DNA of 63,661 nt, counting the filler, from Kipferlia bialata (lineage: Eukaryota), in assembly GCA_003568945.1 (NCBI GenBank). It is 3 parts of 3 records of this genome, joined end to end, with 100 filler letters (N's around TTAATTAATTAA, not from the genome) between each part and the next. Parts side by side here need not be neighbours in the genome. Positions count along the whole stretch, not along the records: positions 1 to 24,932 come from BDIP01000216.1; positions 25,033 to 49,790 come from BDIP01000219.1; 1 more part is not named here. One strand, 5' to 3'. The position numbers and the translations under genes were made by a program. The notes below the pieces were generated by a model that worked only from the letters and a program-made list of their open reading frames with translations, did not search any database and had not been told where the DNA came from. Positions 812 through 42,144 of the stretch are shown in pieces. Position 1 is the stretch's first letter. Every line of letters starts with the position of its first letter.

Positions 812-2370
812 ATGAAGCTTGCTCTTGCTGCTGTGCTCCTTGCTGTGCTCGTGGTCATTGAGGCCAGGGCCACCCACGGATTCGACCTCTCCTACTACCA
901 GGTACCCATTACCACCCATAACATTGCTTTAGTTGGCTTCTTGGCGTGTGTAGACCAGTTTGACAAATCCTGACCCTGACTCTCGTGTCGTGATTGAGGA
1001 CTGTATGTTAGCACTACTGACCTCAGGGAGACGTCTCCCAGTCCTCCTTCGACTGTCTGAAGAACGACGGCATGCAGTTCGCCATCTTCCAGGTATGAGT
1101 CAATCCCGCCCCATTTGTTACCTTTCCGCAGTGTTTGATGTAAACTTGATGTATGTCCTCTGCTTACGGCCCTTACTCCCACTTACCTCTAGGCCCAGAG
1201 GTCCAACGGAAAGTACAACTCCTACCTGAAGCACCAGTACGACCGCTCCGTCGCTGCCGGCATCAAGTGTACGTGTATGATTCATACTTCTGAGTCTACT
1301 ATCGTATTTCATTCTAAGCCAAATGCTGTCTTCTGACTCCAGACAACGACCACTACGTGTTCCCCGACACCAACAAGGACGCCAAGGTGATTTGGTCTGT
1401 CTGTATCCCTCTCCCTCTCTCTCTCTCTCTCTAATATTATATGTATCCCACTAACTTCAGTCCCAGATCAAGTCCACCATCGCCTCCATGAAGGCTGACG
1501 GTGTGCTCTCCAAGAACATGATCTGGGTGGATATCGAGAACACCGGTATGTATTACAGGGAGTATGAGTTATATGATGTCTGTTCCATTAATGTCTCTGT
1601 ATATCTCACCCCCAGACTACTGGTACAGCTCCCACTCCCAGAACATCCAGTTCCTCAAGGACTTCATCACTGAGGTATATCTTAGTATATACCATATGTT
1701 TAGACTGTGTACCTGGGCTCATTATTGTCTCTAGTCTCCATTTCATTCAGGTCAAGTCTTTGTTTTTGTGTGCCTCTCTCTATATATATGGACTATATCT
1801 AATCAGCTAGGCCAAGTCCCAGTACAGCTACTGCGGCACACTCTCTATATTATATAATAATGTCTTTGTATATATATATATATATATATTTATGGACTAT
1901 ATCTAATGTATCAGGCCAAGTCCCAGTGGAGCGTGTCTCTATATATATATATATGTATGAACTGTACTCTGTATCTTATGTATCAGGCCAAGTCCCAGTG
2001 GAGTGGCTGCGGCACACTCTCTATAATGTATTATAATGTCTTACTTAATTATATAGTTATGTATATGGACTATATCTAATCCCCCAGGCCAAGTCCCAGT
2101 GGAGCGGCTGCGGCACAGTCTCTATATTAGTGTCATTATATATACACATATATATATGTAAGGACTATATCTAATCACCTAGGCCAAGTCCCAGTGGAGT
2201 GGCTGCGGCAACAGGCACGGCTGCATCGGCATCTACACCTCCTCCTCCCAGTGGAGCGCCATCACCGGAGGCACCACCGTACGTAGAAGTCCCTCTCTCT
2301 CTCTCTTTCTTTCTCTCTCCTTTTCCCTCTCTCCTCCTCACCCCCAGGACTCCTTCTTCGCCAGACAATG

Positions 2371-2410
<40 letters not shown>

Positions 2411-2848
2411 AGTATATCACCCCTCACCCCCAGGACTCCTTCTTCGCCAACCTGCAGCTCTGGTACTGCCACTACGACAACAACGCCTCCTTCAGCGACT
2501 TCAAGGTACAGTGTTCATATCCACACATATATTTACATGTGTATATTAGTAGCAATGCTTCTGATGTTCCTCCCTAACTCTCTAGGCCTTCGGCCCCTGG
2601 TCCAAGTCCTAATTATATGGTGTTATATATGTGTATAATTCTTCCTCACCCTAGGCCTTCGGCCCCTGGTCCAAGCCCGCCATGAAGCAGTATACTACAC
2701 AGTTCATATATATGTGTACACTATATATTGATCAGATTATTGAATTGCTTACTTCTAGGCCTTCGGCCCCTGGTCCAAGCCCGCCATGAAGCAGTACACC
2801 GGCACCACCTCCAAGTGCAGCACCCAGATCGACAACGACTGCTACTAA
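812..2848 (+). CDS. Secreted glycoside hydrolase family 25 lysozyme (protist/nematode Lys1-like type), 9 exons
   Basis: Spliced product: MKLALAAVLLAVLVVIEARATHGFDLSYYQ|GDVSQSSFDCLKNDGMQFAIFQ|AQRSNGKYN...|...NMIWVDIENTD...|AKSQWSGCGNRHGCIGIYTSSSQWSAITGGTT|DSFFANLQLWYCHYDNNASFSDFK|AFGPWSKPAMKQYTGTTSKCSTQIDNDCY*. It has a signal peptide and the GH25 motifs G-D-S, WxDxE, GIYT, LWYxHY and FGxWxxPxxKQY. All junctions are GT-AG and in phase. Confidence 0.92.
1745..2210 (+). repeat. Tandem partial copies of the branch point + acceptor + exon start (GCCAAGTCCCAGT...) inside a lysozyme intron
   Basis: AG|GCCAAGTCCCAG occurs at 1811, 1915, 1987, 2088 and at the real exon at 2183. Most copies are preceded by GGACTATATCTAAT and separated by (TA)n. 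Confidence 0.9.
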
Positions 2849-3266
2849 GCACTGGTATATACACTTGCTGAGTTGTATATTAAGACTCTAGAGCAGCTAG
2901 TAGTTGGTCTCTGGATGACTTAGTTATGACTTGGTGATGAGATATTGAATGGTATTGAATTGATATATGTGGATACATGGCTTAGCGTTGGCTCAGTTTG
3001 CCTGAGCATGGAGCTACCTGTAGAATCATAAATTGTGTGTTGTGTCAATGGTGTGTCTGACAGCTATGACTAGGTAATATTACATCTGCAGAAGTCTTGA
3101 AGTCCCATCATAATCTGCAGCACTGGTTCAGTAAATAAACTGGATGCACGTTTCGACTATGCGACCGGGACCCTTTTGTGTTTTTGTCAATCTCGATGTG
3201 CAGTTTGAACCATCTGATGGTCCGTGTTACGTTATCTGCCTCTCTCTCTCTAGGGAGAGCTGAGAT

Positions 3267-5498
3267 ATGCGTACCTTGGCCCCCCTGGGACCCCTAGCGC
3301 TAGTGCTAGTAGCCATATGTGTATTGGCGGTATTGCTCCCTGCGGTTGATGCAAGGGGAGTGAGCTTCAAGCATGCCAAGCATGCCAAGTCTAAGAGTGT
3401 GGGCACAACAGGTATTGTGACCCAGACCAAAGAGGCCCCCACCCTGGCTGAGGGAGAGAGTGGCATTGTGTGGGAGGCTGTCCCAGAGAATGGAGCCCCA
3501 CCCGCAAGGTATCATGGCACTATACACACTGTATTATATATATAGTACATGTTGTATAAAATATGTATGCATATGTGTGTAGCGGGGGAAGCAGTGCCGC
3601 AGAGGGGGTAACCACGGCGCAGCCAATATCCTGGTTATGATTATATGTGGCGCATGTTATATGATCTCATATATATTTTTGTACATGTATATGATTTACA
3701 ATTGGTCAGCATGTAGTGTTGTAGTTGAAGTCTCACTCACTCTGTGGATCCAAGCTATGTATGGTTTGTTTCTTGCTATACTATCTTATCCCCCCCCCCC
3801 CTCCCCCCTAGTTTCCTTATATCCCCCTTGCTCATAGTTGCTGCTATTGGTATTCTCTCTCTTTCTCTCTCTCCCTCCCCACCACTCTCTCTCCATCAAC
3901 CCCCCCTTCACACGTCCATAATAGCTCTATATCCGTGGATCTCAGATCATCTCATTCTCTCTCCCCCATTCCATGTGTCCCCATTCTGACCCCCATAATC
4001 TGTCTATGATAGCGTATATGCTATACCTTCGGGCAGTGCTTGCATACCTGATGATGTGTATCTGGTATCTATTTATGATTCTGCGTGCCTCAGTATCCGT
4101 ATCTTTAATCATCTTCCATGACTTCCCTTTTCTGATCTCCAGGCGCTTAACCAACGTACAGTCATGTATATTAGTATTGTATTCCTCTCTCTGTGTATAT
4201 CCCTATATCCCTCTAGACTATCTATTCTGACCTCCATGCGCTTTGCCAACGTTCTATCATATATACTATTATTGTCTCCTCTCTCTCTTTTTATTTCATT
4301 ATATATCCCCCTAGACCATCTATTCTGACCCCCAGGCGCTATGCCAATGCCCTGCTCAAGGATGACGTGAGGGAGAGGTAGGACATGCATATATGTGTAT
4401 AGTGTACAATAGTTCTCACATTAAGTAATTCACTTAGATATGTATATATACTATGCCAATGCTCTGCTCAAGGATGACGTGAGGGAGAGGTAGGACATGC
4501 ATATATGTGTATAGTATACAATAGTTATCACATTTAGTGATTCACTGAGATATGTATGTGTACTATATGCCAATGCTCTGCTCAAGGATGACGTGAGGGA
4601 GAGGATACACACACACTCACACACACATACACACATACAATCATCTGCGTTTTCTGGGATAAGAAAGACACTTCCCTATATTGGTAATTAGTGGTAGTAG
4701 TTATGTATTCAGATGTATTTTGGGTTTCGGTTCCTCTCCCTCATTACTAAGTATAGGCTGATTGTCCTTGGTAGTACTGACAACATCAACTGTCTCTCTC
4801 TCTCTCTCTCTCTCTCTTCCCATCTGACTGTTTCTCATTCTCTCTACCCCCTTACAATAGGCTAATTGTCTTTGGTGGCACCGATACCATCAACTTCTAC
4901 TCTGACCTGTGGTTCTTCGACATACCCACCCAGATATGGCAGAAGGCTGCTGTTCTAGGTATATAGTTAATATTATAGTATAGTTAGAGTATAGTATAGT
5001 ATAGTTAGATCTGCAAGATGGTATATGAATTCATATTATGGTATATGTATGTAAATATGTTTTTCTTCGACATACCCACCCAGATCTGGCAGAAGGCTGC
5101 TGTGCTAGGTATATATATGTATCTATCTATCTATCTATATATATATATATGAGGAGAGAGAGAGAGACAGGGAGAGAGTACCCACCCAGATATGGCACAA
5201 TGCTGCCGTGCTTGGTATATATATATATATATATGTCTAAATTGATTCCATGGCAATTATATGGAGAGAAGTAGAGAGAGTGTGCCCACCCAGATAGGGG
5301 AGAAGGCAGTTGTGGTAGGTAGTATATATATATATATATGGATAGAGAGAGGGGGAGAGAGTACCTACCCAGATATGGCACAAGTGTACCCACCCAGATA
5401 GGGAAGAAGGCAGCTGTGGTAGGTGTTTTCAAGACTAGTGATAAGTGCTCTATGTACATATGTGCTGTACCCCCAGGCCGTGCTGCCCCAGTGGCATA

Positions 5499-5543
<45 letters not shown>

Positions 5544-6176
5544 CTAAACCTAGGCGCTGAGCCCCCGGGCCGTGCTGCCCCTGTAGCATTCCTAGACGGG
5601 GACAACATCTACGTTGGATTTGGGTTTCAGGTATATTCTTGTTAGATGATATGCGTATCCAACTTACGCACATAAGACGCACGTTTCAACTTTGATTCTA
5701 TTTGTCATTACATGTGTACACCTGACCTTCAGGACGATACCTTCTACTCCGACATGTGGATGATCAACCAGTATACATTATCTCTCTCTCTGTATATATT
5801 ATATATACATATTCATATATATATAATGTATAATATATTTAACCTAGTACCTTACTCCCAAGGATGACACCTTCTACTCCGATATGTGGATGCTCAACCA
5901 GGAGGAGATGATCTGGAACGAGGTCACCACAGACGTCTCACAACGTACGTCTACTATATACTTGACATTATTTCATTGTGTCGCTTGGTATTATTCTTAT
6001 ACATATATATAATACATAATGGATACCATAGTGTCTGTGGTCTGGAACGAGGTCACCACAGACGTCTCACAACAACGTACGTATCAGTTTCGTGATCTGT
6101 CACTCCGGCTCTCTCTCTACAACGTCTTATCTGACTGGTTGCAACGTGTTTTATGCCCAGTGTAGCTATTTATCTG

Positions 6177-6225
<49 letters not shown>

Positions 6226-6288
6226 CTAACACTAGGCTCCAATGTCTTCTATGCCCCTGTGGAGCACCCTGAGACACCTTTCTCTCTT

Positions 6289-6319
<31 letters not shown>

Positions 6320-7072
6320 CTCTTATTAACACCAGGCTCCAATGTCTTCTATGCCCCTGTTGAGCACCCCGACTGGGGCAACTGTCTGCTGATGTTTGGT
6401 GGGATGGTGGGGGACAGCGTGCTCAGAGGTATAGGACACACACACTCACACACGTCGCGTGTCTACCTCTGTTTCCTCTCTCTCTCTCTCTCTCTCTATC
6501 TGCCCCCTAACCCCAGACACCTACCTTTTTGTCCCATCTTCTCTCCCTCTCTCTCACTCTATCCTTATTCCAGACACCTACCTCTTCGAGCCATCCTCTG
6601 ACGGTGGTACCTTCCACTCCATAGACACCACAGAGGCCACAACACCACCCGCATGCAGTAACGGATGTGCAGTTAGCACAGGTATTGTATTGACTTGTTT
6701 GATGTATATTGCTTCAACCCTCACACGAGCTCTTGGCCTTATATGTAGGTATTGGATTATGATTTGAAAACTAACTATGAGGCAACACCGTGTACATGCA
6801 CGGTGGGTATGGTGGTCTGACTAACGAGGGGGAGGAGCTTGTGAACATTGAGACATTCAGGTTCAGGATAGAAGAGAATGGGGACATGGTGAGTATAGTA
6901 TGTATATATATATCCCCCCGATGTGAGTGTATTATAGTGTCCTGCAAATATAGTACTATATTTAGTATAATACTTACATTATGTACACTATATACCACTA
7001 ATTCTGGAACTGGACCTGTGTGGTCCACCCCCTATGTGAATGTATATATACTTCTAATCTAATGTTCTAATC

Positions 7073-7110
<38 letters not shown>

Positions 7111-7559
7111 ACTCATACTAGGACTGGACCTGTGTGTGGTCCACCCCCGATGTGAATGTATATACTCCCATATTATGCATAGTTATGCATAGTACATAAT
7201 AATATATATTTATCTCATTCTAGGACTGGACCTGTGTGTGGTCTGTCCCCGAGGACACCACTGGGGTACAGGTGCCACCTGGGGTGACAGGTACATATAT
7301 ATACAGTAGTATATATGTATGTATATCTATTTATATAGTGTTTACATGTATATATTTATGTATATCTATTTATATAGTGTTTACATGTATGGGTATATAG
7401 TTCACTGTGGTGCAGGTGCCACCTGGGTTTACAGGTGTGTATACATGAGAGTATACCATATATATCATTCTTAAGGATAGACCTTCTATCATTGTGTATC
7501 CTATCAATACATATTGACTCCAGACAAGTGCTGCTACCTGGACGTGACAATGTGTACAC

Positions 7560-7596
<37 letters not shown>

Positions 7597-9422
7597 CATC
7601 CTTCCTTACCATGTATCTCATCCCAGATCAGTGCTGATATATAAATGTGTATTGTACTATTATATATAAGTACATATCATATATAAGATATACATATGTA
7701 TAATAAGCCTCCCTTCTCACCCCAGACCAGTGCTGCTACCTGGACGAGGCAGGAGAGAACCTGCAAGTAGTCTTTGGCTGGCTCTCTTGGTCCGATGCCG
7801 ACTGGATGACTGACCTGTACTCTTTGTATCTGGATCCAACAGGTGTGTGTAGATAATAGTATATACCCATATGTATATATCCCATATGTATATCTAGAAA
7901 TTTTTTCGTGTAAGTGTATATGATTAAGTAGTAGTTTGTATGGTAGGTCAAGTATTGAATCACTGTAGTATAGTATTTCATTATAGTTGTTGATATATAT
8001 AGTTTGTGAATGGTCTCACACTACACTCTGACCCTGCCTCTGTCGTGTGGACCAAGACTTCTGGATGTGAATATTTATATATATATGTATTTTTGTATAT
8101 TTACATTTTCCGTCTCTCTTTCTTGTCCTATATATATATGAATGCATATATAGACTAACTGCAGACTCTGCCCCTGCCTCTGTGGTCTGGACCATGCAGG
8201 ATGCATTCATATATTGTAATATAGCTTATCTTAGTTTCTCTCTTTATATGGATAGATACTTCAGTACTGACTCTAGACTCTGCCCCTGCCTCTGTGGTAT
8301 GGACCAAGCAGGATACTTACACATCGACATGTTTTCATAGTCTCACTCTTGTATCTATGTATTTATATGCATACTAACTGTAGACTCTGCCCCTGCCTCT
8401 GTGGTGTGGACCAAGCAGGATGCAGGATGCAATATATGAAGTATAGTAATGCCTCTGTATTTGTATGCATACTCACTACAGATTCTAGCCCCTCCTCTGT
8501 GGTGTGGACCAAGCAGGATGCAGTTTTAGATAGACATTACTCTCTTTGTCTCTCAATGTCACTGTAGACTCTAACCCCTCCTCTGTGGTATGGACCAAGC
8601 AGGATGCAGACTTAGATAACGAGGACTCGGACGATGTGGTGTATGCAAGGTATAATATAATATTCCCATTTTGTCTCTTGATACATATCATCTAATGTAG
8701 TGTTCTCTCTAACCGATAGAGACTCTGTCCACATGATCACAGACCAGGGACACATATATATATCCATATCTCTCTTTATGCTATATACGTACATACATAT
8801 ATGTATGTATAAGTATGTATATACACTTACCCTCAGAGACTCTGCCCTCATGATCACAGACCAGGGGCGCGGCATAGTCTTTGGAGGTATCTATCTATAT
8901 ATATCTACATATATATATATATATATATATATTCATATTTATATTGTTCATATTTATATATATATATATATAAATATATATATACATCACCATCACAGAC
9001 CATGGGCGCGGCATAGTCTTTGGAGGTATCTATGGTCAATAAATAAGTATATTCATAAACGTATGTATATAAATGTTGTGTTTATGTGTATTTGTATACA
9101 ATGCCTCACTATCATACCAAGGACACAGAATAGTGTACGGAGGTATCAGTGGCATATGTATATATGTGTAAATTAATACATTTTCAGTGAGGGATATACT
9201 ATGTTATCGAGCCTGTTAGTATTATACTGTATGTACGTATGTATAACTATTTACACTCAGGCTGGGGTGAGGAGATTGACAACGACCTGCTCTACGTGTC
9301 TGCCCATGACCCATCCACACCTGGTGCCATAGCGGTGGATGAGATACACAGTGCATACGATGGGGTGCCAGGTATATTAGTGTACATGTATGTAATTTCA
9401 TGATTGTCTCTGTGGCTCATGC

Positions 9423-9463
<41 letters not shown>

Positions 9464-12400
9464 AATATATATATACATATATATCCTCCCTCTATTCTAA
9501 CCTCCAGCCCTTGTCTCTGTGGCCCATGCAACTAGTGGTGACTCCATATACGGGTTCGGAGGACAGACAGACGTGAGTACCTTGTTAATGTCCCGTTGGA
9601 AGTGTATATAGTGCATTGATTTGTATTTCAGAATTATATACAGTTAATTACTTACACACTAGTACAATGACGCCCTCAACACCTTCTTTGGATTCAACAC
9701 ATATATATATGTAGCACTATATGATATGTGTATAAGTATATACAATATTACAATACCCACACTTAACCATCCAGTATAACGATGCCCTCAACACCTTCTT
9801 CGGGTTCAACACAACGTCAAGCACGTGGTTCACACCATCGGCATCAGGTATCAGTATGGATAGTTTCTGTTTGTAGTGATCCTCTGTATATTTTTGTGCA
9901 GATATTTACAGGATTATGTGTTGTATATCATATATGTCGCTGATGTTAGGTGATCTTCCCCCCCTCTATGATGCCATGATGGAGTCCTGTATAATTGTAT
10001 TAGATCTAATATACTGTATGGATATATACACTAGTATATGCACATATACTTATTCTATTCCCCTTATCACAGGTGATCTGCCCCCCTCTAGATATGATGC
10101 CATGATGGAGTCATTTGGACCTGTGCTAGTGCTGTTTGGAGGCCAGGACGCAACAGGTACTGAGTGTAATACAATGTAGTATCCTATGTAGTTTAGTATA
10201 TACTCTGAACAATGAAATATTAATAACAGTGAGTCGTGTAAACTATTCACATATACATATATATAACTAATCCTCAGGTGGATTCCTCGATGACATGTAT
10301 GTGTACCACACATCGACAACACTCATGAAGCTGCTGGTGAGTGTATGTATATACATATTGTATTCCACATATACTCTTCACGAAAATGCTGTTGATTCCA
10401 TATGTGCTATTATCAGCTCTCATGCACTGATGGACGTCTCATGTATACTATCACTCATGCTCAGGAGACCGCCGGCACCCCTCCCTCTGCCAGGACATTC
10501 CTCATATGACCTCTATATACTATATACATTGCATTATATATATGTATTATGTATACTATATTATATATTATATCCCTATATATTCTCTCATATCCAGGAG
10601 ACCACCGGCACCCCTCCCTCTGCCAGGAGCTCAGCTGCCACAACCACAGTGGGTATGTACAGTGTAAACATATAGTACACCATATATATATATAGTATAC
10701 AGTGAATAGTAATATTCGCATATGTATATAGAGAGCCAGGAGTTTTTTTCAGCTGCCACAACAACAGTGGGTGAGTGCATTATATATATATTGTATACAG
10801 TGAATAGTAATATTCGCATATGTATATATATATAGCCAGGAGTTCAGCTGCCACAACAACAGTGGGTATGTATATGGAACATGTAGTATACAGTATATAT
10901 GTATATGCATTTATAGTATCTCTATGTCGTATATTTCTAGGGGCTCAGTTGCCACAACAACAGTGGGTATGTATTCATTGATATATAGACGTCGAATTAC
11001 TCTCTCTCTCTCTCTCTCTCAAACCCCAGGCGAGACCCTCTTCCTCCACGGTGGCCTGACCTCTGCCGGGGTGGATGGGGACCTATTCATGATCAACTAC
11101 ATTGATAAGGTATAGTGTGTATTCTCAATGTACTATGAATATATAAAGTGTTCTATAACTATATGATGGGAGGATGGAGACCTCTTCATGATCAACTACG
11201 AGTGCATTGATAGAGAAAGGAAGTATTACTCTTGATTTGTATGGAATGCATACATATTTGCAATACACTGATCCTAGATCTGGACCCCCCTGACCTCCCT
11301 TGAGACTGAAGGGTGCTCTCCCGTACTACGAACATCCCACAACATGGTGTTCATGCCAGATCCCAACAGTGATCCCGAGGAGACAAGTGAGTTACTATTG
11401 CAATGTCGCCGTCTCTCTCTCTTTCTATCTCCCCACGTCTCGTCATATCTCTCTATTCTCACATTCAGGCACATACTCTCTGTCTGATGGTGATCCATAT
11501 GTCCTCTCTCTCTCTCCCTTTGGATATGTGTGTTTGTATGTATGTATACATCACTCTCTTACCTTCAGGTACCTACTCGCTGTCTATATCAAGACAAGTG
11601 AGTAAGTATTCTCAAATACCGTTCTCTCTCTATGTATATACTAGTTACATATTAGATACATCAAACTCACATTCAGGTACCTACTCCCTGTCTGATGTAG
11701 ATGTGTACAAACAATCCCATTCTCTCTCTCGCTATTTATATGTATATCATTCTAATCTCTAGGCACCTACTCCCTGTCTGATGGTGATCTCTATGTCCTG
11801 TCTGGCCTGGACGAGAGTATGTGGCCGGTGGTGAGTGTATATATTAATATATACTAGTGTATATATTTATATATACATAGTATATGTTATTATAGTGCCT
11901 ATATTGTAGAAATATGAAATCTCTGTGGCAACGTGGATAAGAGGGTATATACATACATACTTCTCACCCGAGAACAGGAATGCATCTTCAATGCCGGTAT
12001 CAGACACACACAACAACACTCATATACATGCATGTACATGTAGCTGTGTAGGAAAGTGCATGTGTAAATCTAACCCCAGAATGGTATCTTCAAGGCAGTG
12101 ATCGACCTGGATGCAGAGACTGTGTGCTGGCAGGTAATGATGATATAGTGCAATTACTTAAGCGTGTGATTAGTATGGTATTTAGACTTACCATCAGACC
12201 TAGGACGACCCCGATGACTACTCTCTCTCTCTATACATACATTTACTGATGGTGCAAATACTATTCATTAGTGCTATATAGAATAGTCTGACACCTAGCA
12301 CGTTCAATATATTTATATATATATATATATATATATTACTATATGATTATATTCTGACACCTAGCACGTGGACGACCCCGATGACGTTGCCCCAGCATAT

Positions 12401-16912: not shown

Positions 16913-16946
<34 letters not shown>

Positions 16947-27192: not shown

Positions 27193-27236
<44 letters not shown>

Positions 27237-27685
27237 GTGTACATCTGGTACAATAAGGGTGTAGAGGGAGAGAGAGAGAGAGTATATACCTGGCACAAAT
27301 GACAGACACTGGGGCTTGGTGTTGAGGCTGAGGGCAGCTATGCATGTGCCCTGGGCCACGTTCCAGATACGCACACGCCTGGTATTAAGGGTGTAGAGGG
27401 TAAAGAGGGTGTAGAGAGTATTAAGGGTGTAGAGGGTATCAACGGTGTAGAGGGTATTAAGGGTGTAGAGGGTATTAAGGGTGTAGAGGGTATCAAGGGT
27501 GTAGAGGGTATTAACAAGAGTGCACATAAGTGTGCTGTGTAGAGAGATACTGGGAGCATATATGCAGTGAAATACCTGTCGAATCCAGCTGTGGCCAGTC
27601 TGGTGCCACCTCTCTCTCTCTCTCTCTCTCTGTATATATATATATATAAATATACCTGTCGAATCCAGCTGTGGCCAGTCTGGTA

Positions 27686-27727
<42 letters not shown>

Positions 27728-27879
27728 ATATATATATACACAGCACACTGTATAGAATATACATAGGAATACCTGTCGAATCCGGCTGTGGCCAGTCTGG
27801 TACCGTCCTCGGACCAGATGACACTGGGGGTGGGATACACATAGATAATAGAGAGAGAGAGAGACAGAGAGAGAGAGAG

Positions 27880-27923
<44 letters not shown>

Positions 27924-29190: not shown

Positions 29191-29225
<35 letters not shown>

Positions 29226-29437
29226 GAATCGACCCAGGTGAGGCAGCAGTGCCTAGTGTCTAAAGGGTGTAGAGGGAGAGAGAACAATACCTGCTGCACA
29301 CTGACAGGTACCGGTTGTATATATTTATATACATTGGAAATTTGGACAGATAGAGGGGGAGAGAGAGAGAGAGGGGTACCTAGGCACCGTAGCTCTGACT
29401 CTGGTACATATACCATATACTATACTAAATAGTATAT

Positions 29438-29492
<55 letters not shown>

Positions 29493-29501
29493 CATACATA
29501 C

Positions 29502-29532
<31 letters not shown>

Positions 29533-30976: not shown

Positions 30977-31014
<38 letters not shown>

Positions 31015-31148
31015 GATATTTATATATATATATATATATAGTATTGTATTCATTAGTATACCTAGCCTCGACCTCCAGGGCACGTCTGCGCTCATCGGCC
31101 TCGGCCTGACATAAGGCAAAAACAATAAGGGTCTAGATATATACACAC

Positions 31149-31183
<35 letters not shown>

Positions 31184-31599
31184 AAGAAAGAACACACTGC
31201 GCTCATCGGCCTCGGCCTGGGGGTTAGAGATACCAATAGCACTTAATAATAATAATAATGATAATTAATATCTATATTGTAGCATATACAAATATTGGGA
31301 AGGTATGCGCTCATCGGCCTCGGCCTGGGGGGTTAGATAGACATACACAGATAGTTAGATAGACATATATATAGTTAGATAGACATATATATAGTTAGAT
31401 AGACATATATAAGGTTATATATAGTTAGATGGAGAGAGAGAGAGAGAGAGAGAGAGCTCACCGGCTTCGGCCTGGGGGTTAGAGATATAGGCACCACACA
31501 TACATGGTATATATTGAATATATATACACATATACACTGTATATATACACTGTATATACCCCCATCGTATTTTCATAGTCCTTGGCCTCCTGTTCAACA

Positions 31600-31631
<32 letters not shown>

Positions 31632-31632
31632 A

Positions 31633-31672
<40 letters not shown>

Positions 31673-31735
31673 TATATATACTGTATATACACCTCCATTC
31701 TCTTGTCATAGTCCTTGGCCTCCTGCTCAACAGCA

Positions 31736-31777
<42 letters not shown>

Positions 31778-32196
31778 CTGTATATATACCTCCATTCTCT
31801 TGTCATAGTCCTTGGCCTCCTGTTCAACAGCAGCCAGCTCCTCAGCAGTGGGGTCCTCGGCTCTCCTAGTCATTAGATTAAGGCAAAGTCATTAGATTTA
31901 GAATTATATCATTAGAATAAGAACATAACAGCAGCCAGCTCCTCAGCAGTGGGATCCTCAGCCCGCCTAGTCATTAGATTAAGGCACAATCATAGAGTAA
32001 GACATATGTCAATATGATGTAATGTATCCTTACGAGTCAATATTATAGATTAGTTTTGCTCTATTCACAGGTCAATATAGATTAGTGATGAAGTCATTAT
32101 ATTAGTACCTCTTGGCCTCTCTGGCCATCTCGGCTGTGTCGAATGGGTTGTATCCACCCTTGACACCAGTGTCCTCCTAGTAATGAGTAAAGGGGC

Positions 32197-32242
<46 letters not shown>

Positions 32243-34872
32243 CCTTGACACCAGTGTCCTCCAATTAATGAGAAAAGGGGCTAGAGGGGGAGAGAGAGAA
32301 TGCAAAACACCCATATGCCAATCTCCTTCTCCCTCGCCTTGTCTCTCTCTCTCGAAAACGCCAATTCTCAAATAGATATTTCCATTGCTGTTGATAACGA
32401 TTCAATATATATACATATTTATATATATATACCTTCTCGCCAGTCTCCTTCTCCCTCCGCCTCTTCTTGGCAACCTGACGCCTGGCCTGATTGTGAGATA
32501 TGCACACATCAGATATACATACACATATATACTCACCTGGTTACGCACTCCCTCTGTGAACAGGAACTCTCTCTCTCTCTCTCTCTATCATATAGCATAT
32601 ATATTAATATATATATATATGTATAGTACATACACTATATACTCACCTGATTGCGCACTCCCTCTGTGAACAGCAATACTCTCTCTCTCTCTCTCTCTCC
32701 ATATATATATATATATAATATTAATATATATACAAACATATGTATTTATACCTGGTTGCGCACTCCCTCTGTGAACAGGAACTCTCTCTCTCTCTCCCCC
32801 CCCCCCCTCCCCCCTTCCCTCTCTTTCAATATTCACATATATATAAACAATTGTATATATGTGTATAGTACATATACGAACCTGGTTGCGCACTCCCTCT
32901 GTGAACAGGAACTCTGCCTGTGCGTCCTGAAATAAGGGTGTAGAGAGAGAGAGAGAGACAGACGCACCCATACAACAATACCCATAAATACACACATTAA
33001 TATTCATATTCTCCCATACCTTGACGTGCTTGGCCACCACTGCGTGCTTGGCATGGGTGACAGAGGCAGCATAGCCTGGTATTAAGGGTGTAGAGAGAGA
33101 GAGAGAGAGAGAGTAGGCATGGGTGACAGAGGCAGCATAGCCTGGAAATAAGGGTGTAGAGAGAGAGAGATGGAGAGAGAGTGCACATGGGTGACACAAG
33201 CAGCAACTACACACACACACACACATATATATATCTACAATACTAATTTTACCTGATCAAAGAAGGGATTGAGATATATATACCCTACTTGCCGTCTGCA
33301 TGTTCACAGGGTTGACCTCCTCTATATATATATACAATACTATATAATGTGCATATATAGGTATATAGGTGAATACTATCTCTGACCTGCTGTCTGCATT
33401 TTCAAGGGGTTCACCTCCTCCTGCACCACGGCCAATATACTATCAATATCTATATACTACACTTAACACATACTCGTATTTATATACATATAGTATATAT
33501 CATTTCCCTACCTGCCGTCTGCACATTGAGTGGATTGACCTCCTCCTGCACCACAGCAAGGTGGCATATATATATTATATACTATATACACTATATATAA
33601 TAATACACCATACTCAATACAGCTGATGATAAGGGCCTAGCGAGGGAGAGAGCTATATATTACCTGCCGTCTGCATATTGAGTGGATTGACCTCCTCCTG
33701 CACCACGGCCAGATGGCATATATACTATATACTATTTAATTATTATTTAATTATTATTTAATTTACTATATATACTATATACCTAACACATATATGTATG
33801 TATACATATAGTGTATACATACCTGCTGTCTGCATATTGAGTGGATTGACCTCCTCCTGCACCACAGCCAGATGGCCAACAGGTGCATATATACTATATA
33901 CACTATATATACTACACTATATACATATACACATAGTATCTATATACCTGCTGTCTGCATGTTCAAAGGGTTCACCTCCTCCTGCACCACAGCCAGGTGG
34001 CACAGATACTATATATACTACACTACATACTATATGCATATACAGCTGATGTTAAGGGTCTAGAGAGGGGGAGAGAGAGAATACCTGCTGTCTGCATGTT
34101 CAAGGGGTTCACCTCCTCCTGCACCACAGCCAGGTGGCCAACAGGCACGTTGATGGCGCCACTCGCAATGAGCTTCTCTCTGGTGTTAGAGAGAGAGATA
34201 GAGAGACAGAGAGAGAGAGACAGGTACGTTGATGGCGCCACTCGCAATGAGCTTCTCCCTAGGGTTAGAGGAAGAGAGAGATAGATAGATAGAGAGATAG
34301 AGAGAGAGGCACAGTGATGGCGCCACTCGCAATGAGCTTCTCCCTAGGGTTAGACATATACATACAGGCAAATATATATATAAGGAGAGAGAGAGAGAGA
34401 GAGAATCACAATGAGCTTCTCCCTGTAGTGTTAGAGGAAGAGGCGAGAGAGACTATCTGTTGTATTAGAGAGAACGGAAGCCTATGGGGAAGACCGGGAG
34501 CTTCTCCCCTGTATGAGAGAGACAGGGATAGATTGCGGGAGAAAGAGGAGCATCAATAATAGTTGCGCTTGCAATCAACGGACGGACACAGACGGAGAGA
34601 GAGAGAGAGAGAGAGTACTAGAGGGGGGGGGGGGGGAGGTATATACATTATCTATTCACTACTAGTCTAAGTCAATATGTCAACAGCATACAAATATGTC
34701 ACAACGTGAGATATGACAGAAAACGTCATTGGTGATATGCAGTAGAGACTGCTAGATGCAACAGAGACACCCAACTCACGTACAGGATGCAGTCGAACAC
34801 GGATCTGATGGCTGGATCGTTCCGTCTGATGTTGCCAACCTCCTCGCAGACACGGCATTGGATGCTCCCCAT
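25146..34872 (-). CDS. PRP17: Pre-mRNA-processing factor 17 / CDC40 (WD40 splicing factor), 3'-truncated at the contig end
   Basis: Spliced segments INVPVGHLAVVQEEVNPLNMQTA, AEFLFTEGVRNQ, YSEWHNPAQYKALGRTYTQVP and ATVPRHCCHTWVNAHPKGVSALVWAPKSGHMFVSGGMDGKVKLWD parallel CDC40 (GPENPF; F.FEQQRR; YDYQGRSY; LPKK.IH.W.GHTKGVS). Further WD40 exons: CIRTFHGHTRPITS, WSEDGTRLATAGFDRRVRIWN, HFVTSAEDKQLVMWE. The start codon at 34872 is tentative. Confidence 0.82.
27383..27512 (+). repeat. About 7 copies of an 18-nt minisatellite (TATTAAGGGTGTAGAGGG) in a PRP17 intron
   Basis: Direct repeats visible at 27383-27512; they produce the spurious TLYTLN ORF. Confidence 0.9.
33286..34140 (-). repeat. About 7 tandem copies of an exon 3' end plus donor (EEVNPLNMQTA|GT) in a PRP17 intron
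   Basis: Real donor near 34084; copies end near 33948, 33823, 33664, 33511, 33387 and 33290. Confidence 0.88.
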
Positions 34873-35175: not shown

Positions 35176-37273
35176 ATGGCTCCCAGGTAGTATATTGTGA
35201 CGCTACTCTGTACTATTTAGAAATTCGTATATAGGCACATTTCGAAATCAGAAACAAAAGTGAAGAAGAACTAGGGTTTAGCTGGAGTTGCGGCAACTGT
35301 TGCCTATCGCTCGCTTGTATTTCTTCATCTGTGTCATACAGACCGGTCATCACTATTTCGAGAACACACACTTGTCTGATCCTGCTTGCCTAGGTGGGTG
35401 TGGCCATCAGATATGCCGGTGGCTGCAGATGTGGTGGCTGAGACCGACTATGGGCTGTACCCCTTTGAGAGTGAGGAGCACTATGCCCTGTGGGTGGAGG
35501 AGGAGAGAGAGAGGGAGGGGGAGAACTCATCAGACCCGACTGGAGGTGAGGAGGGCCCGGGTCAGGGCGTGGCCAGTATGACAGAGGAACACATGCGGCG
35601 GCGATACTTCAGGTATAGATAGACTCCTCCCCATTCCTGTCATCTATTAAGAACTCACTCACCACCTAGGCTAATGGTGAACAGTAATCTTGCATACTAC
35701 CCTGACGAGCCTGTGTATCGGTCGGCAGCGGAGGAGGCAGAGGCAGAGACACAGGGAGACGTAGACGGAGAGGGTCAGACCAAAGAGACGTTCCTCACTA
35801 GGTATGAACACATGTGGTCTCTCATTCCTGGCCATGATTCATTCTTACCATCAGGCGACTCTCCCAGTGGCTGGCAACTGCTAGCAAACAGCTCAATGGA
35901 GTAGGTATGGTGTGTCAGTGTCTGGATCTCTGTCTTCAGTCCTCTCCTGACCTCTAGGTGACTTCCTGGCGCCCTACCTCCCAGAGCTGGACATCGCCAC
36001 CTTCTGGCTCAACACAGTCAACGCGCTCATGGCTGTGCTCTCCCTCATAGCCCCTGCAGCATCTAGGTATGTAGTAGTGCAATATGCATGTCTCTCTGCT
36101 CTCTCATTCCAGACCCACCGTCCGGCTGTTCCTGCTCATCAGCTGCCTGACTTGCTTTGCATTCCCCCTGCTGGTGGTGGCTGTGGAAGTGGGTACGGGT
36201 AGTTGTTCTGTAGTTCTAGCCTCTCTCCATATGTATTCTAGTCTCTCTACATTGTAATATCACTTCTATTCAGCACCTCCTTCTGACCCTCCAGGCACCG
36301 CCTCCCTCCCCTCCCAGCTCCCATACCTTCCCTCCTTCCAGTATCTAGTACTGGCACTGGGTATGTGTCGATCCACATCTGCCTCCCTCTATGTATGAAT
36401 ATGAATATACATACAACATTGGCTCCTCTCCCCTCTCTGCCTGGTCCTATCCCTGCCCCACCCCAGTGTTCATCCCCGACGGATACATCACAGTCATAGC
36501 CAGTGTGGGTCTGTCCTCCTGTCTCCAGAGTGTGCTCATACTGCCGGCACTCAGTGCTCGCATACCAGCACTCAGAGAGGTACGCCCATATGTGATCATT
36601 GTATAGGCAGTGTTTATACATTCGACTACACACTGGTAATGGTCCACTACCGGAACTTACACTCCCTGTTTTGCATATACATTGCCCTTACCCTAGGTAC
36701 AACTGGTGCGTGTTCTGTCCAGCAAGAGGGCCCTGCTGATGTACTTCAGTGGCACAGTCATAGCGGCAGTGGAGACACTAGGTACACATACCCATACCCA
36801 CTTCTCTCCATATAACCCCCCCCCCCTCATGTCCAGGTTTGCTCGAGTGCCTGTGCCGGTCTCTGCTGGGTGTACAGTACACAGTCAAGCTGCTGGTCTA
36901 TGTAGCATTCATATGCCTCAGGTACTGGGAACACTGCTTTTGCTTCTACTCCTGGACTCTTCCACTTGAGCATGACTACATACTATAGTATGTACACTCT
37001 TGTTTGTACTCACCCCCAGAATGAGGGACAATGCAGTGCTGCAAGGGTTCATGCACACTCTCAAGGATAAGGTGCGGCATAGTCTAATCATGCAGTCATC
37101 GCCCCCTGCTTCTTCTCCTCCCTCACCCCTAGGTAGAGGCCATCCCACGTGTGGGCCCTGTGTCTGTCAAGATTGGGGAGCTTGTGTCTCACACGGTGTC
37201 ACACTTTGTGACAGGCAGCTACAGTCAGCCAGAGGTTGTGGCAGAGGCAGAGCCACTGTCGGAGCAGGAGTGA
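35176..37273 (+). CDS. Multi-pass membrane protein with an acidic N-terminus, possibly TMEM33/Pom33-like
   Basis: MAPR|WVWPSDMPVAADVVAETDYG... followed by hydrophobic exons (FWLNTVNALMAVLSLIAP; LFLLISCLTCFAFPLLVVAV; LPSFQYLVLAL; LLVYVAFICL|RMRDNAVLQGFMHTLKDK|VE), ending AEPLSEQE*. The gene structure is fairly clear; the family assignment is weak. Confidence 0.55.
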
Positions 37274-37643
37274 GGGGTTGTCAGTGTATTTGTCCCCAGG
37301 CTGAGCTCTGACAATGTGTGAGAGAGATCAGTCCTTTTGGGTATATTGTTTCATAAGAGTGTGTGCGTGTGTGCTGTGTATAGATACATCAGGTTTCATT
37401 TATTGTGGTCTCCTGGCATATTGAGCACATATCCCCTACACCTTCTGTTCAACGAGGGAGACGATGTAGATGAAAATTCACAATCCTGTGTTTCTACCTC
37501 CGATGCATCGGCGTGACAAGCATCAGTATTGAGTATGAGTATTGACTACGGACAGCTGTCTGCTGGGAAATGGGCCATCTCAGTGACAGAAGCCTTAGCA
37601 CTGTCTCTGGTTACTATAATACGGTGGTCTACCCATTCCGTCC

Positions 37644-39569
37644 TCACTCGATGTCGCTGTCTATCGAGTCAGCCTCGGTGTCAAACGTAGACTCATGCAC
37701 CTAAAGGTGAGGAGTGGCACTCTAAACAGAGATATGGTGTGTAGTCAAGTGAGAAGAGACAAGAGAACACTGAAGCGACTGCGACATCCTCCCTGTCCCC
37801 ACCTCGTACTCGTCCTCCTCCAGTTCAGACCCGGAGTCCACAAGGGTCTGGCCAATCTACACGGTCAGGGAGGTGATGGAGAGGGGGTTAGTAGCAGAAA
37901 GAGAGACTGCAAGACCGTACCGGGCTAGCCATGAACTCTGCTGTCATGCCTGGGTTGCCATCGAGCAGTAGGTGGATGAGAGAGGGCATAACCTCCACTC
38001 CGTTGATGGTCTCCCCACCCCTGGGGTCAGGCTATCCGTACTGAAATATTCTGTATATATGTAACCTGTTTGACCATCACCACCCCGTACCCTGTGAATG
38101 AGGCCAGCTCTACCAGGCCCTGCTCACTCAGCTCATTCCTAGACAGGTCTATGCCCACCAGCTCCTGTAGACCCACCAGGTGCTTGCGGATAACCTGGGT
38201 GAGCCCGGGGGTCGCAACACTATGGTGACACAACAATGCAAGTAAACTGTGAACAGTACATATACATATCCTGTACCTCTACAATCCTGTCTGGCAGACC
38301 ACATGATGCCAGGGCCAGCATGGTCATGTTGTCCATGGACCCCACACACTCCAGCACTGTGGGGCCATGGGCCTGGGGGTGGGGGTGGGGGTGGGGAATA
38401 GGGGATAGAGGGAAGATAGTGTGACAGATATTCAAAGTGTTAGGTAGAGGTACAAGGAGTGAGACACACTACACTATGTACCTCTCCGAAGTTGTTCTTG
38501 TTCAGAAGCAGAGTCTCCAGGCCCGTGCTCTGCCTATTGTGAGGGGGAGCGTATGAGAGAAATCAACAAGAGACAGGTGCACTCACCTCAGTGTGGTGAT
38601 GAGAGCATTGACAGACCCTTCGGAGTCGATGCCTGGGGTTGGAGGATATGCATACTGATATACAAAGAGAGATAGAGGGCCGTGCCTGCCTCCGACAGGT
38701 CCAAGAACTCTAGCTGGGACAGAGACACCCACTCAGACAGAGAGGAGAGGGCCTAGGGGTGAGGGGTCTTCATCGTGAAGTGTGAGAGAGTTCCCGGAAT
38801 CAATGTCCGTTTGACTGTCAGTGGTGACAGAGCTACGATCCACCCACCTCCTGTGAAACCAAGTGTCCCCCTCCCAGAGATATGGCTGATAGTACCACAC
38901 CACTCTCCTTCAGGGCATCAAGAACATCACCTGGGGGGAGACAAGAACACTGCAGACTCACCCTACCCTCTGACAACAAGTATGGTGACTCCCCATACCT
39001 GAGATGGGTGCGTTCCCTGTCATGTAGAGCTGGGTGACACAGGGGGGCAGGGCACGGCAGATGGTGCAAAGGGTCTCTGTCGACATCTCGCAGTCACTGT
39101 GGTCAGAGCACGTGGATACATAGAGAGGGGGTTGTAGTGGAAGACTCTGTAGCCCCACCTGATGCCGAGTGTCGTAAGTGCTGTCAAGGTGGGAAGGACT
39201 GCTGCCAGGGCAAGGCCTCCCTCGTCTCCCATGCCGCACCGGCTGAGAGTCAGAGACAGGAGAGAGAGAGAGAGAGAGTATGTCACCCACCCCATCTGCA
39301 GGGACAGCACTGTGCTGGGCATGTGGGCAACCAGGGCTGCGGCACCTGCAGGGGTCAGGGGGTTCTCCTCCACATTCACATCCTCCAGTGTCACCATGGA
39401 GCCTAGGACGCCACCCAGGGCCTAGGGGTGAGGCAGGGCAAGAAGGAAGGGAGAAGAGGAGCTGGGGCATGATAATTATGTGACATATACTGACCTCAGC
39501 TCCCACAGCGCCAATGTTGTTCTCTGGCACAGAGAATATCATAAGGTTGGGCCCAATGCCGTTCTCTGA
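37644..39569 (-). CDS. RI-like leucine-rich-repeat protein with acidic tail (RanGAP-like), 5' end missing
   Basis: LRR exons ENNIGAVGAEAL, VNVEENPLTPAGAAAL, RCGMGDEGGLALAAVL, LLLNKNNFGE, IDLSRNELSEQGL and LLLDGNPG, then the acidic end DSGSELEEDEYE|VHESTFDTEADSIDSDIE*. The LRR call is solid. RanGAP identity is inference, because the catalytic N-terminal part is absent. Confidence 0.7.
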
Positions 39570-39666
39570 CTGTGAGTGATGACAGTGTGTGTTACATAGG
39601 GGGGGGGGGGGGGGGCACCCCCCCCCACCCGCCCCTATGTATATATCTATCTATCTAACCCCCAGG

Positions 39667-41354
39667 TGGCTATGGCTACTCCGTCAATGTGGATGTAGAC
39701 GATGGAGTGGATGACGAGACATACGGCAGGATGTTCAAGCCCATCCTCCAGTCATGCATAGACCACTACAGGTATTATATAGATAGATAGTCTTGCATAC
39801 GTTAATACATGGGTAGTACGTATTTATATATTTGTATATATTTATGTAGAATACATTTGTTGGTATGTTCAAGCCCATCCTCCAGTCATGCATAGACCAC
39901 TACAGGTACGATATATATGGATGTATATATATATATATATATATATAGATGGACAGTCTTCCATCAGTCATGCATAGACCACTACAGGTAAAATATAATA
40001 CAAGTCAATATATACCTCATGCATTTGTGATGCATTTGTGATGCAGCGTAGTGATGTCCTCTCTCTCTCTCTCTCTACACCCTTAATGTGAATCTCACTC
40101 CCAGACCCTCTGCCATTGTGATGCAGTGCGGTGCTGTCGTCTCTCTCTCTCTCTCTCTACACCCTTAGCGTGTATCTCACCCCCAGACCCTCTGCCATTG
40201 TGATGCAGTGTGGTTATGTTCTCTCTCTCTCTCTCTGCTCCCTTTATGAATTCCTCACCCCCAGGCCCTCTGCCATTGTGATGCAGTGTGGTGCTGACTC
40301 TCTCTCTCTCTCTCTCTACACATTTACTATATGTCTCACCCCCAGGCCCTCTGCCATTGTGATGCTGTTCTCTCTCTCTCTCTCTCTCTCTACATATACA
40401 CATTTACTATAGTCTCACCCCCAGACCCTCTGCCATTGTGATGCAGTGTGGTGCTGACTCTCTGGCCAATGACAGGTACGAGGCACTCTCAGATATACTA
40501 TATATATATATGTAAATATATATATATATGCATATATGTGCCGTCAGTGATATACTCCCTGGCCAATGACAGGTACGGGGCATGTTATATCGTAATTCGT
40601 TATTTCAATACTATGTACGTATCATAACGTCACCCGTGATAGTATAATTGCACAGAGATTGAGGTGGAGAATGGTAACTCGATATATTCATACATGTTCT
40701 GTTGTTGTCCTCTTCCATGTTACATATCATTCATATACCTCTATATATACTGATGCCTCTCACCCCAGACTTGGCTCCTTCAACCTGACCCTCAACGGGC
40801 ACGGGGACTGTGTGCAGGTTTGTTACAGATACATCTATTTGTTACTGACATGTATATATGCCAGTGTTCCTCCCCTTTTTCGCCATGTCAGTTTCACCCA
40901 CATACCCCCCCCCCCCTCTCTCTCTCTATGTATATACCTCTCACCCTCTAGACCGTTGCCTCCTATGGCCTCCCCACCCTCTCTCTCCCTCTTTCTCTCT
41001 CTCTATCTGTCTCCCTCTCTCCACCCCCCTCGCCTCTTTTACCCATATAATCACCATACCCTTATCCCGTCTCACCCTCTAGACCGTTGCCTCCTATGGC
41101 CTGCCCACCCTGTTCCTGGGAGGGGGAGGGTACACTCCAAGGTATATATATGTATATACTACCAATAACTAGTGATGACAGTTGTAAATAGCATTGTACT
41201 CACGCCACACTATTGTCATCAGCAAGTCTTTGTCGTGTTACTCTCTCTATATATATCTTTCTCTTTAGATGTATACGTATCTGCACGCATCTTACACCCC
41301 AGGAATGTGTCCAAGTGCTGGACCTACGAGACCGCCCTCCTTGCTGGCACCCAG

Positions 41355-41391
<37 letters not shown>

Positions 41392-42144
41392 GTCGCTCAC
41401 ACCCTCTCCCACAGTTTGACTACTATCTTTGACTACTATATGTTGGTAACGTAATTATATATGTGTATTATCTGTATCGCACTCACTGCCAGCTCTCCGA
41501 GGAGATCCCCTACAATGGGTTCTATGAGTTCTTTGGCCCCGACTACACCCTTTCGGTGCTACCCAGTAACTGCCAGAACATGAACACAGATAGACAGGTA
41601 TATCTATGCTCTCTCTCTCTCTTTCTTTCTCCCCCCTCCCCATCCCCCTTACCCCCCTATTCACCTTCAGATTGAGGACAAGGTCCTTATATATCTCTCT
41701 CTCTCCTTCTGTCTCTCTTCCCCTATACCCCTTTTAACCACCAGATTGAGGACAAGGTCCGTATGGTGACTGAGCGGTTACGCTCTCTGCCCAATGCCCC
41801 AGGTACAGACATCTCTCTCTCTCTCTCTCTCTCTACATATATATATATATATATATCATATTCTTGTGTATAAGAGAATATGATATATATATAGTATAAC
41901 TGTGTCGATTACACTCACTCTTAGGTGTTGCCCATGGCCGTACCAACCTGGACGCTGCCCCCATAGCTGGAAAGGGTGAGTACTCTCTCTCTCTATATAT
42001 ATATAAATGTATGTGAGTACACACACACACTCTCTCTCTCTCTCTCTGTCTCTCTCTGTCTCTCTCTGTCTCACCCTAGACATGTTCTCCGACTCTGCCG
42101 TTGCCGAGAAGAGGGACGAGGAGGCCGATGTTGCTATGGACTAG
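39667..42144 (+). CDS. Class I histone deacetylase (Rpd3/HDAC1-3 family), C-terminal half only
   Basis: GYGYSVNVDVDDGVDDETYGRMFKPIL...HYR|PSAIVMQCGADSLANDR|LGSFNLTLNGHGDCV...LFLGGGGYTPR|NVSKCWTYETA...EEIPYNGFYEFFGPDYTL...NMN...ERLRSLPNAP|GV...DVAMD* contains the diagnostic class I motifs QCGADSL, GGGGYT, CWTYET and FGPDY. Confidence 0.93.
40095..40475 (+). repeat. Five tandem acceptor/exon-start copies (CTCACCCCCAG|ACCCTCTGCCATTGTGATGCAG) in an HDAC intron
   Basis: Copies near 40104, 40186, 40265 and 40346; the real exon starts near 40425. Copies are separated by (CT)n. Confidence 0.9.

What the first reader, a model, noticed from the sequence alone, without database searches (positions are those of the whole stretch)
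1675..41760. Introns built from stuttered copies of their own splice junctions (decoy acceptor and donor arrays)
Seen: in the lysozyme, Kelch, Nup50, PRP17 and HDAC genes, and more weakly in the rhomboid and last genes, long introns consist of 2-7 tandem units of one of two kinds. One kind is branch point + AG + the first 10-50 nt of the NEXT exon (e.g. 1811-2183, 8023-8568, 16729-16956, 40104-40425). The other is the last 15-60 nt of the PREVIOUS exon + GT (e.g. 10627-10970, 15180-15463, 33290-34140, 39730-39990). Units are separated by (CT)n/(TA)n. Acceptor copies stop before the exon's donor. Only the last acceptor copy and the first donor copy give a full reading frame. Inference: a locus-wide junction-duplication process drives intron growth, and the spliceosome must skip many near-perfect decoy sites, implying strict exon definition, recursive use of the sites, or abundant unproductive isoforms. 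I do not know this as a described genome-wide architecture.
Basis: partly seen in the sequence, partly recalled or inferred. Interest (0 to 1): 0.82.

Follow-up and report, generated by a model that had tools for sequence, protein, structure and literature searches.

The report
Introns stacked with former splice junctions
In a free-living protist, 69 of 151 introns examined hold stacked partial copies of their own exon borders, which the RNA examined skips; the copies differ from the live border the way two working versions of a gene do, so they likely arose by recombination between divergent chromosomes rather than by simple stutter and decay.

Summary
Real. In 12 modelled genes, 69 of 151 introns hold 143 copies of the adjacent exon end (about 1.5 expected by chance); the units make up 44% of intron sequence and occur on all three joined scaffolds. 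RNA contigs from two samples use the last acceptor, and DNA unitigs run through the arrays at single-copy depth. A protein search names the organism as Kipferlia bialata. The unit type is known: amphioxus "mirages", which this scan has also noted in single genes of several invertebrates. New here are the density and the divergence pattern. Copies differ from the live exon mostly at synonymous sites (4-fold/0-fold ratio 4.5; neutral decay allows at most 2). Their intron flanks differ at about 45% of sites, yet AG/GT, branch point and consensus are kept. So they diverged while functional. Most likely mechanism (inferred): about 100-nt template-switch duplications at CT/TA microsatellites, often between divergent haplotypes, with selection keeping only single-junction units. 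The excess is absent in two genes and weak on the acceptor side. Genome-wide extent, minor decoy use and allelic origin are untested. New variant of a known kind; interest 0.7.

The parts
812..2848 (+). Secreted lysozyme-like gene (label recalled; no Pfam hit on single exons), 9 exons; 7 acceptor copies in 3 of 8 introns
   Evidence: spliced joints in X2, X3, X4
1675..2182 (+). Intron with four acceptor copies (1811, 1915, 1987, 2088); live acceptor at 2183
   Evidence: 508-nt GT..AG joint in three RNA-type runs
2506..2758 (+). Intron with two acceptor copies (2586, 2655); live acceptor at 2759
   Evidence: X3 record 12 goes from 2503 to 2757
3267..20319 (+). Kelch-repeat membrane protein gene, 47 exons; 63 copies in 33 of 46 introns
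   Evidence: equals public protein P0002 except one 5-aa acceptor choice; piece lengths of X2 record 11 fit exons 1-13
8025..8567 (+). Five acceptor copies, each with a different branch-point spelling; they record earlier codons of the exon
   Evidence: X1 unitig 7612-8313 spans three copies with no difference
10653..10970 (+). Three donor copies; donors alternate between the two common consensus forms
15233..15463 (+). Two donor-side copies; 8 of 8 differences from the exon are synonymous
16639..16955 (+). Three acceptor copies
20648..24049 (-). Nup50 gene, 14 exons; 8 copies in 6 of 13 introns
   Evidence: my 353-aa model is the exact C-terminal part of P0001
24933..25032 (.). N-padded linker between scaffolds
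   Evidence: sequence
25146..34872 (-). PRP17-like WD40 gene (label recalled; only weak WD hits), 21 exons, cut by the scaffold end; 50 copies in 18 of 20 introns
   Evidence: open frame only, no RNA laid here
33076..34084 (-). 1009-nt intron: six donor copies, then two acceptor copies; copies 2-4 share a cluster of synonymous changes, and every copy has a different sequence after its donor
35670..39421 (.). Two genes (membrane protein on +, LRR-like on -; labels recalled) with short introns and no copies: internal control
   Evidence: the LRR-like model loses frame after exon 8
39666..42144 (+). 3' half of a class I HDAC gene; 10 copies in 4 of 8 introns, including donor copies 39865 and 39965 and acceptor copies 40036-40347
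   Evidence: Pfam PF00850 at E 0.012, below cut-off
43115..46132 (+). Unnamed gene; 2 donor copies in 11 introns
49791..49890 (.). Second N-padded linker between scaffolds
50078..53056 (+). Rhomboid gene; 1 donor copy in 12 introns
61894..63212 (+). Last (partial) gene; 2 copies by alignment, plus short acceptor copies near 62770-62870

Best explanation
The arrays are real tandem duplications of about 100 nt that each span one splice junction, and they likely arise when DNA repair or recombination synthesis leaves an exon, passes through a CT/TA microsatellite and re-enters the neighbouring intron, often on a divergent copy of the chromosome. Shown: one-junction units, strand-symmetric breakpoints, dominant RNA using the exon-adjacent unit, and copies that differ from the live junction only in ways a working junction tolerates. 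Inferred: (1) selection removes units that carry a whole exon or a whole intron; (2) the unit joined to the complete exon is chosen by exon definition, because only it has a partner site across the exon; (3) each copy was a working allele of the junction until it was stranded, which explains synonymous-only codon changes and different but valid splice signals; (4) young arrays also grow by same-chromatid slippage and then decay neutrally (HDAC, lysozyme-like gene).
For: Acceptor and donor types are equally common (73 vs 70), as random placement predicts; whole-exon units (15-21% expected) and whole-intron units (7-22%) were not seen. (CT)3 follows 42 of 73 acceptor breaks and 0 of 70 donor breaks; its complement (GA)3 precedes 18 of 70 donor breaks and 1 of 73 acceptor breaks, a DNA-strand symmetry. 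A spliced-cDNA template is rejected: AG is present in 14 of 15 and GT in 48 of 50 cases where the joined exon could not supply it. 137 of 248 distinct differences are synonymous, against 0.27 neutral and 0.43-0.45 if the live exon also drifts (p 5e-5 to 1e-3; junction bootstrap 0.48-0.63). 4-fold sites differ at 0.152, 0-fold sites at 0.034, ratio 4.5 (3.0-6.7); copy against copy 4.1; the excess p4-2p0 is flat over ranks (0.09, 0.11, 0.10), as a difference present at birth predicts. Identity drops at the junction: AG/GT 0.90-0.96, next intron bases 0.44-0.66; 17 copies with a perfect exon part have 45% flank mismatch. Yet the branch motif is kept (46 of 69; live 27 of 45; random AG 11%) and position -3 stays a pyrimidine in 51 of 52 although 17 differ. 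Decoy signal scores exceed all 500 random-mutation simulations. Metamonads lack NHEJ and are argued to rely on homologous recombination (PMC8516963 passages).
Against: No second haplotype was seen: no variant letters are listed in X1 over 700-10480. The synonymous excess is absent in the lysozyme-like gene (0 of 27 4-fold sites) and HDAC (2 of 46). It is weak on the acceptor side (offset CI -0.02 to 0.08) and strong on the donor side (0.07-0.18; permutation p 0.03), an asymmetry the model does not predict. The implied allelic divergence (about 10% at 4-fold sites, 25-45% in flanks) is very high. Divergence also rises with distance from the live junction (3.9, 6.1, 7.4, 11.2%), so time matters too. 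(GA)n is rare in copy-free introns (0.9% of windows), so it may form at the break rather than serve as a landing site. Differences within an array are not independent. All of it rests on 151 introns.
Confidence: 0.55

Rival explanations
1. Reserve copies: arrays collapse or convert often enough that any copy can become the live junction, so selection keeps its codons and splice signals while the rest of the flank drifts.
For: Explains both constraints without divergent alleles. Changes that parsimony places on the copy side are 26 of 43 synonymous against 0.25 expected; block duplications can blur that polarity.
Against: Predicts fewer 0-fold changes near the junction; they are flat along the copy (0.023-0.036 beyond the first three bases; small counts). 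Collapse fast enough to be selected should also erase old arrays (inference).
Confidence: 0.15
2. Plain mirages: same-chromatid slippage, then neutral decay, with hypermutable low-complexity flanks.
For: Fits the HDAC and lysozyme-like arrays, the rank gradient, some near-identical spacers and the link with microsatellite content per gene.
Against: Caps the 4-fold/0-fold ratio at 2 (observed 3.0-6.7) and cannot keep flank changes inside the consensus.
Confidence: 0.12
3. The copies work in splicing now: nested or recursive removal, or regulated unproductive splicing.
For: Signals are as strong as live ones. In all 17 introns with both types the donor copies lie before the acceptor copies, so inner introns are possible.
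Against: Does not explain codon-level constraint: use gives a stop or frameshift in 52 of 58 and 55 of 55 cases, and unit lengths show no multiple-of-three bias. The donor-first order also follows from duplication geometry. Dominant contigs join across arrays.
Confidence: 0.08
4. Intron ends are borrowed from other introns (an Introner-like or conversion process), with the exon piece duplicated as a target site.
For: One 3'-end motif closes 10 live introns in two genes on two scaffolds and occurs 33 times, sense strand only. One copy's flank matches another intron's end better than its own (score 24 vs 14).
Against: Flanks resemble their own live flank more than other introns of the same gene (mean 7.2 vs 0.8 and 5.4 vs 1.3). 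It gives no synonymous excess.
Confidence: 0.07
5. Assembly artefact: allelic versions of a junction wrongly placed in tandem.
For: The copies look like alleles; only short-read contigs could be laid; X1 may be the source sample.
Against: X1 unitigs run unbranched through exon and copies (1445-1857, 3790-4381, 5554-5941, 7612-8313) with no differences at depth 365-425, like the flanking record at 407; 0.96 of sampled words are held.
Confidence: 0.03

Closest known systems
Amphioxus 'mirage' minisatellites (Adh3, globins BflGb6/BflGb9, troponin C, PGBD5; PMC3087553 and PMC3902484, passages read)
   Same: Tandem units spanning an exon-intron boundary, at 5' or 3' boundaries, 10-160 bp, many keeping AG/GT, normal mRNA unaffected.
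   Different: Reported from a handful of genes, with units 81-100% identical in BflGb6 and mechanism unclear. Here: 46% of introns examined, in a protist; identity steps down at the junction; differences are biased to synonymous sites; breakpoints have a CT/GA strand polarity. The passages read mention none of these; their supplementary alignments were not opened and could bear on this.
[quoted passage not shown]
   Same: Short intragenic tandem duplication rescued by splicing.
   Different: There exonic sequence is duplicated and a new intron appears. Here existing junctions are duplicated and existing introns lengthen; no intron-gain signature in 151 introns.
Recursive splicing and decoy exons of animals (recalled, no call)
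   Same: Splice-site-like sequences inside introns that are absent from mature mRNA.
   Different: Those are not tandem copies of the adjacent exon end; use of the copies here is untested.
Introner elements (PMC9860276, search listing only)
   Same: Shared intron-end sequence across introns (PRP17-like and Nup50 genes).
   Different: The sharing covers about 25 nt of 3' end, not whole introns; inverted repeats and target duplications were not looked for.

Membership tests
Mirage minisatellite | Tandem duplication spanning an exon-intron boundary | tested here: met
   143 copies, all at the adjacent exon end; spacer homology above the 95th null percentile in 19 of 67 and 14 of 57
Mirage minisatellite | Both 5' and 3' boundaries; unit of tens to about 160 bp | tested here: met
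   73 and 70 units; medians 101 and 112 nt
Mirage minisatellite | Many units keep AG/GT but the regular mRNA is made | tested here: met
Mirage minisatellite | High identity along the whole unit, concerted evolution | tested here: inconclusive
   Seen in some arrays; in most the intron part differs at 25-45%
Mirage minisatellite | Copy-number polymorphism or somatic instability | not testable with these tools
   One DNA run only
Intron gain by tandem duplication | Intron ends resemble the opposite exon ends | tested here: not met
   2 vs 2.0 expected and 5 vs 2.7 expected of 151
Recursive splicing | Ratchet-point junction or lariat reads | not testable with these tools
   Only contigs were available
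Introner | Near-identical whole introns in unrelated genes | tested here: inconclusive
   Shared 3' ends in 10 live introns; only 28-nt ends were compared

The most novel reading that the evidence does not exclude
Kipferlia introns are a genome-wide archive of former working splice junctions: recombination between strongly diverged haplotypes strands one allele's junction beside another's, thousands of times over. One genome would then record past allelic diversity and genetic exchange in a metamonad, a group in which sex has not been observed directly, and its reduced spliceosome must pick one site among several equally good ones at about half of its introns.
Probability: 0.4. Interest if true: 0.87.

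Novelty: new variant of a known kind. Interest (0 to 1): 0.7.

Why it matters
It gives a route to intron lengthening that accounts for 44% of intron sequence here. It offers many natural pairs of a used and an unused site with equal consensus strength, in an organism reported to keep 87 of 174 spliceosomal proteins and no recognisable snRNA candidates (PMC6679479 passages), so exon definition can be tested directly. If the copies are stranded alleles, they are evidence of recombination between divergent haplotypes in a group where neither sex nor parasex had been seen directly (PMC8516963 passage). The same synonymous-site test can be put to animal mirages, whose origin is described as unclear. 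In practice the copies mislead gene finders: my weakly penalised predictor called many of them as exons.

Tried and rejected
No whole genome was held, so no genome-wide count. RNA and DNA contigs were laid on 700-10480 only; the other arrays have no read support. No run was on record as RNA; spliced GT..AG joints show that X2-X4 hold spliced transcripts. Bins without RNA cover were not counted as evidence unless a contig joins across them. Two metagenome pattern scans gave 0 hits and 3 hits; the 3 loci show none of this intron architecture and were dropped. A homology search with the Ig-repeat exon found nothing. Spliced-cDNA templating: rejected. Translation of copies: rejected by frame. CpG or sequence context as the cause of the synonymous excess: it persists (106 of 209 non-CpG changes). 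Intron gain from these duplications: no signal. Start- and stop-codon-spanning copies, which a generic duplication model predicts: none reached the threshold of 24 in 5 starts and 9 stops (best score 20), a point against pure randomness. Intron-only units near 100 nt are nearly absent; expected share 1-23% depending on the ancestral intron length assumed, so inconclusive. Canestro 2002 and Gao & Lynch 2009 could not be read. Ten paper searches showed no description of these arrays in Kipferlia or of a synonymous bias in mirages; one search was too broad to inform. In PMC5874029 'tandem' occurs 0 times, and sections 7 and 12 do not mention them; its supplements were not opened.
Full report
What was done. 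No whole genome was held. I read the window, drafted gene models with a small predictor and curated 12 genes with 151 introns by coordinates. Checks: my Nup50 model is the exact C-terminal 353 aa of public protein P0001, and my Kelch model equals P0002 except for one 5-aa acceptor choice. The source names both as Kipferlia bialata proteins. Pfam on single exons confirmed Kelch, NUP50 and rhomboid and weakly HDAC; the lysozyme, PRP17, DPM3 and LRR labels are recalled. One control gene loses frame after exon 8, and one gene at 55.5-61.3 kb was not modelled.

The observation. Aligning each intron to its two flanking exons gave 143 copies at a threshold passed by 0.5% of 3020 unrelated pairs: 69 heads of the next exon, 60 tails of the previous exon, 14 decayed copies near those ends. 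They lie in 69 of 151 introns, add 100 nt per copy and fill 15,225 of 34,363 intron bases. A model-free scan agrees: of 180 near repeats, 129 touch these copies and 27 are intron parts of the same arrays. The window is three scaffolds joined by linkers, with 42 of 68, 24 of 60 and 3 of 23 introns affected. Density is gene-specific: 18 of 20 introns in the PRP17-like gene, none of 28 in three genes with low microsatellite content.

Real in DNA, skipped in RNA. Over 700-10480, X1 unitigs run unbranched and without differences through exons and copies at depth 365-425; X1 may be the source sample, and no long reads were listed. Contigs of X2, X3 and X4 (two samples) all join across the 508-nt intron to the last of five acceptors. 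X3 record 12 also skips the copies at 2348, 2586 and 2655. The piece lengths of X2 record 11 fit Kelch exons 1-13 (partly by arithmetic, as the table was cut). Contigs drop rare variants, so minor use is open. Use of a copy would give a stop or frameshift in 52 of 58 acceptor and 55 of 55 donor cases.

How units form. Units are 101 and 112 nt at the median, with no multiple-of-three bias. Random placement of such units predicts equal acceptor and donor types, as seen, and also 15-21% whole-exon and 7-22% whole-intron units, which were not seen. I infer that selection removes them. The broken exon end abuts (CT)3 in 42 of 73 acceptor units and 0 of 70 donor units, and (GA)3 in 18 of 70 donor units and 1 of 73 acceptor units: one signature on opposite strands, which points to DNA synthesis, not RNA. 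A spliced template is excluded. Copies nearest the live junction are the most alike (26 of 35 arrays). Against pure randomness, no start- or stop-spanning copy passed threshold.

The unexpected part. If a copy rots neutrally while the exon drifts synonymously, at most 43-45% of differences should be synonymous; 137 of 248 (55%) are. Four-fold sites differ at 0.152 and 0-fold sites at 0.034, ratio 4.5 (bootstrap 3.0-6.7). Copy against copy the ratio is 4.1, and the excess is flat across ranks. It holds for each of the four bases. On the intron side identity falls at once from 0.90-0.96 (AG/GT, which were not in the query) to 0.44-0.66, and 17 copies with a perfect exon part have 45% flank mismatch. 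The changes stay inside the consensus: branch motif in 46 of 69 copies against 27 of 45 live sites and 11% of random AGs; pyrimidine at -3 in 51 of 52; signal scores above all 500 random-mutation simulations, with matrices trained on other introns. This is how two working versions of a junction diverge. Limits: no excess in the lysozyme-like and HDAC genes, an acceptor-side interval that includes zero, heterogeneity among junctions (p 0.008) and no second haplotype in hand.

Mechanism. I favour (0.55) template switching during homologous-recombination repair or meiosis, often onto a divergent homologue, so that one allele's junction is stranded beside another's; exon definition would then pick the unit attached to a complete exon. 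Only 8 of 60 acceptor copies have a donor-like GT behind them. Metamonads lack NHEJ and keep meiotic genes, though sex had not been observed (PMC8516963 passages). Rivals: selection through collapse and conversion (0.15), plain slippage and decay (0.12), present use in splicing (0.08), borrowed intron ends (0.07), misassembly (0.03).

What is known. Earlier notes of this scan on animal genes led me to the term 'mirage'; I checked it in passages of PMC3087553 and PMC3902484. The unit meets three mirage features, one is inconclusive and one untestable. Ten paper searches and the parts read of PMC5874029 and PMC6679479 showed no description of such arrays in this organism. Two key papers were not held and no supplements were opened. 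PMC5874029 gives 124,912 introns for the species; 151 is a small, non-random sample, chosen because a reader flagged it.

Verdict. Observation confirmed; interpretation partly supported; a new variant of a known kind. The density and the signature of divergence under function are the surprising parts. Interest 0.7.

Noticed in passing
window 20704-33165 (- strand) and 40073-40158: A shared intron 3'-end motif closes 9 introns of the PRP17-like gene and one of Nup50, and occurs in HDAC copies; 33 hits, all sense strand; it is itself repeated 7.4 times at 27381-27514. Possible copying between introns.
   Followed up: partly
window 24357-24686 (-): A small DPM3-like gene (label recalled) lies upstream of Nup50; public protein P0001 fuses the two, probably an annotation error.
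   Followed up: partly
window 5848-5862: Public protein P0002 uses an acceptor 15 nt upstream of mine; piece lengths in X2 record 11 fit the shorter exon.
   Followed up: yes
window 39599-39615, 42906-42944, 46206-46247: Long G or C runs; the HDAC gene lacks its 5' half right after the first, so scaffolds may be misjoined at these runs.
   Followed up: no
window 42135-42200: Degenerate repeats of the HDAC stop-codon region separated by (AG)n; alignment score 20, below my threshold.
   Followed up: partly
window 46311-49790 (+): An uninterrupted 3.5-kb exon of Ig/filamin-like repeats in an otherwise intron-dense region; no relatives found at near lengths.
   Followed up: partly
window, all 151 introns: The branch-point A sits 7-8 nt from the intron end in 84 of the 102 introns with a motif match, like the fused branch point and acceptor described for diplomonads; one GC donor (38685) and one GAG acceptor (6781).
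   Followed up: partly
window 8025-8649: The copies preserve earlier amino-acid states of the live exon (Ala, then Ser, then Asn at one codon, by my reading).
   Followed up: partly
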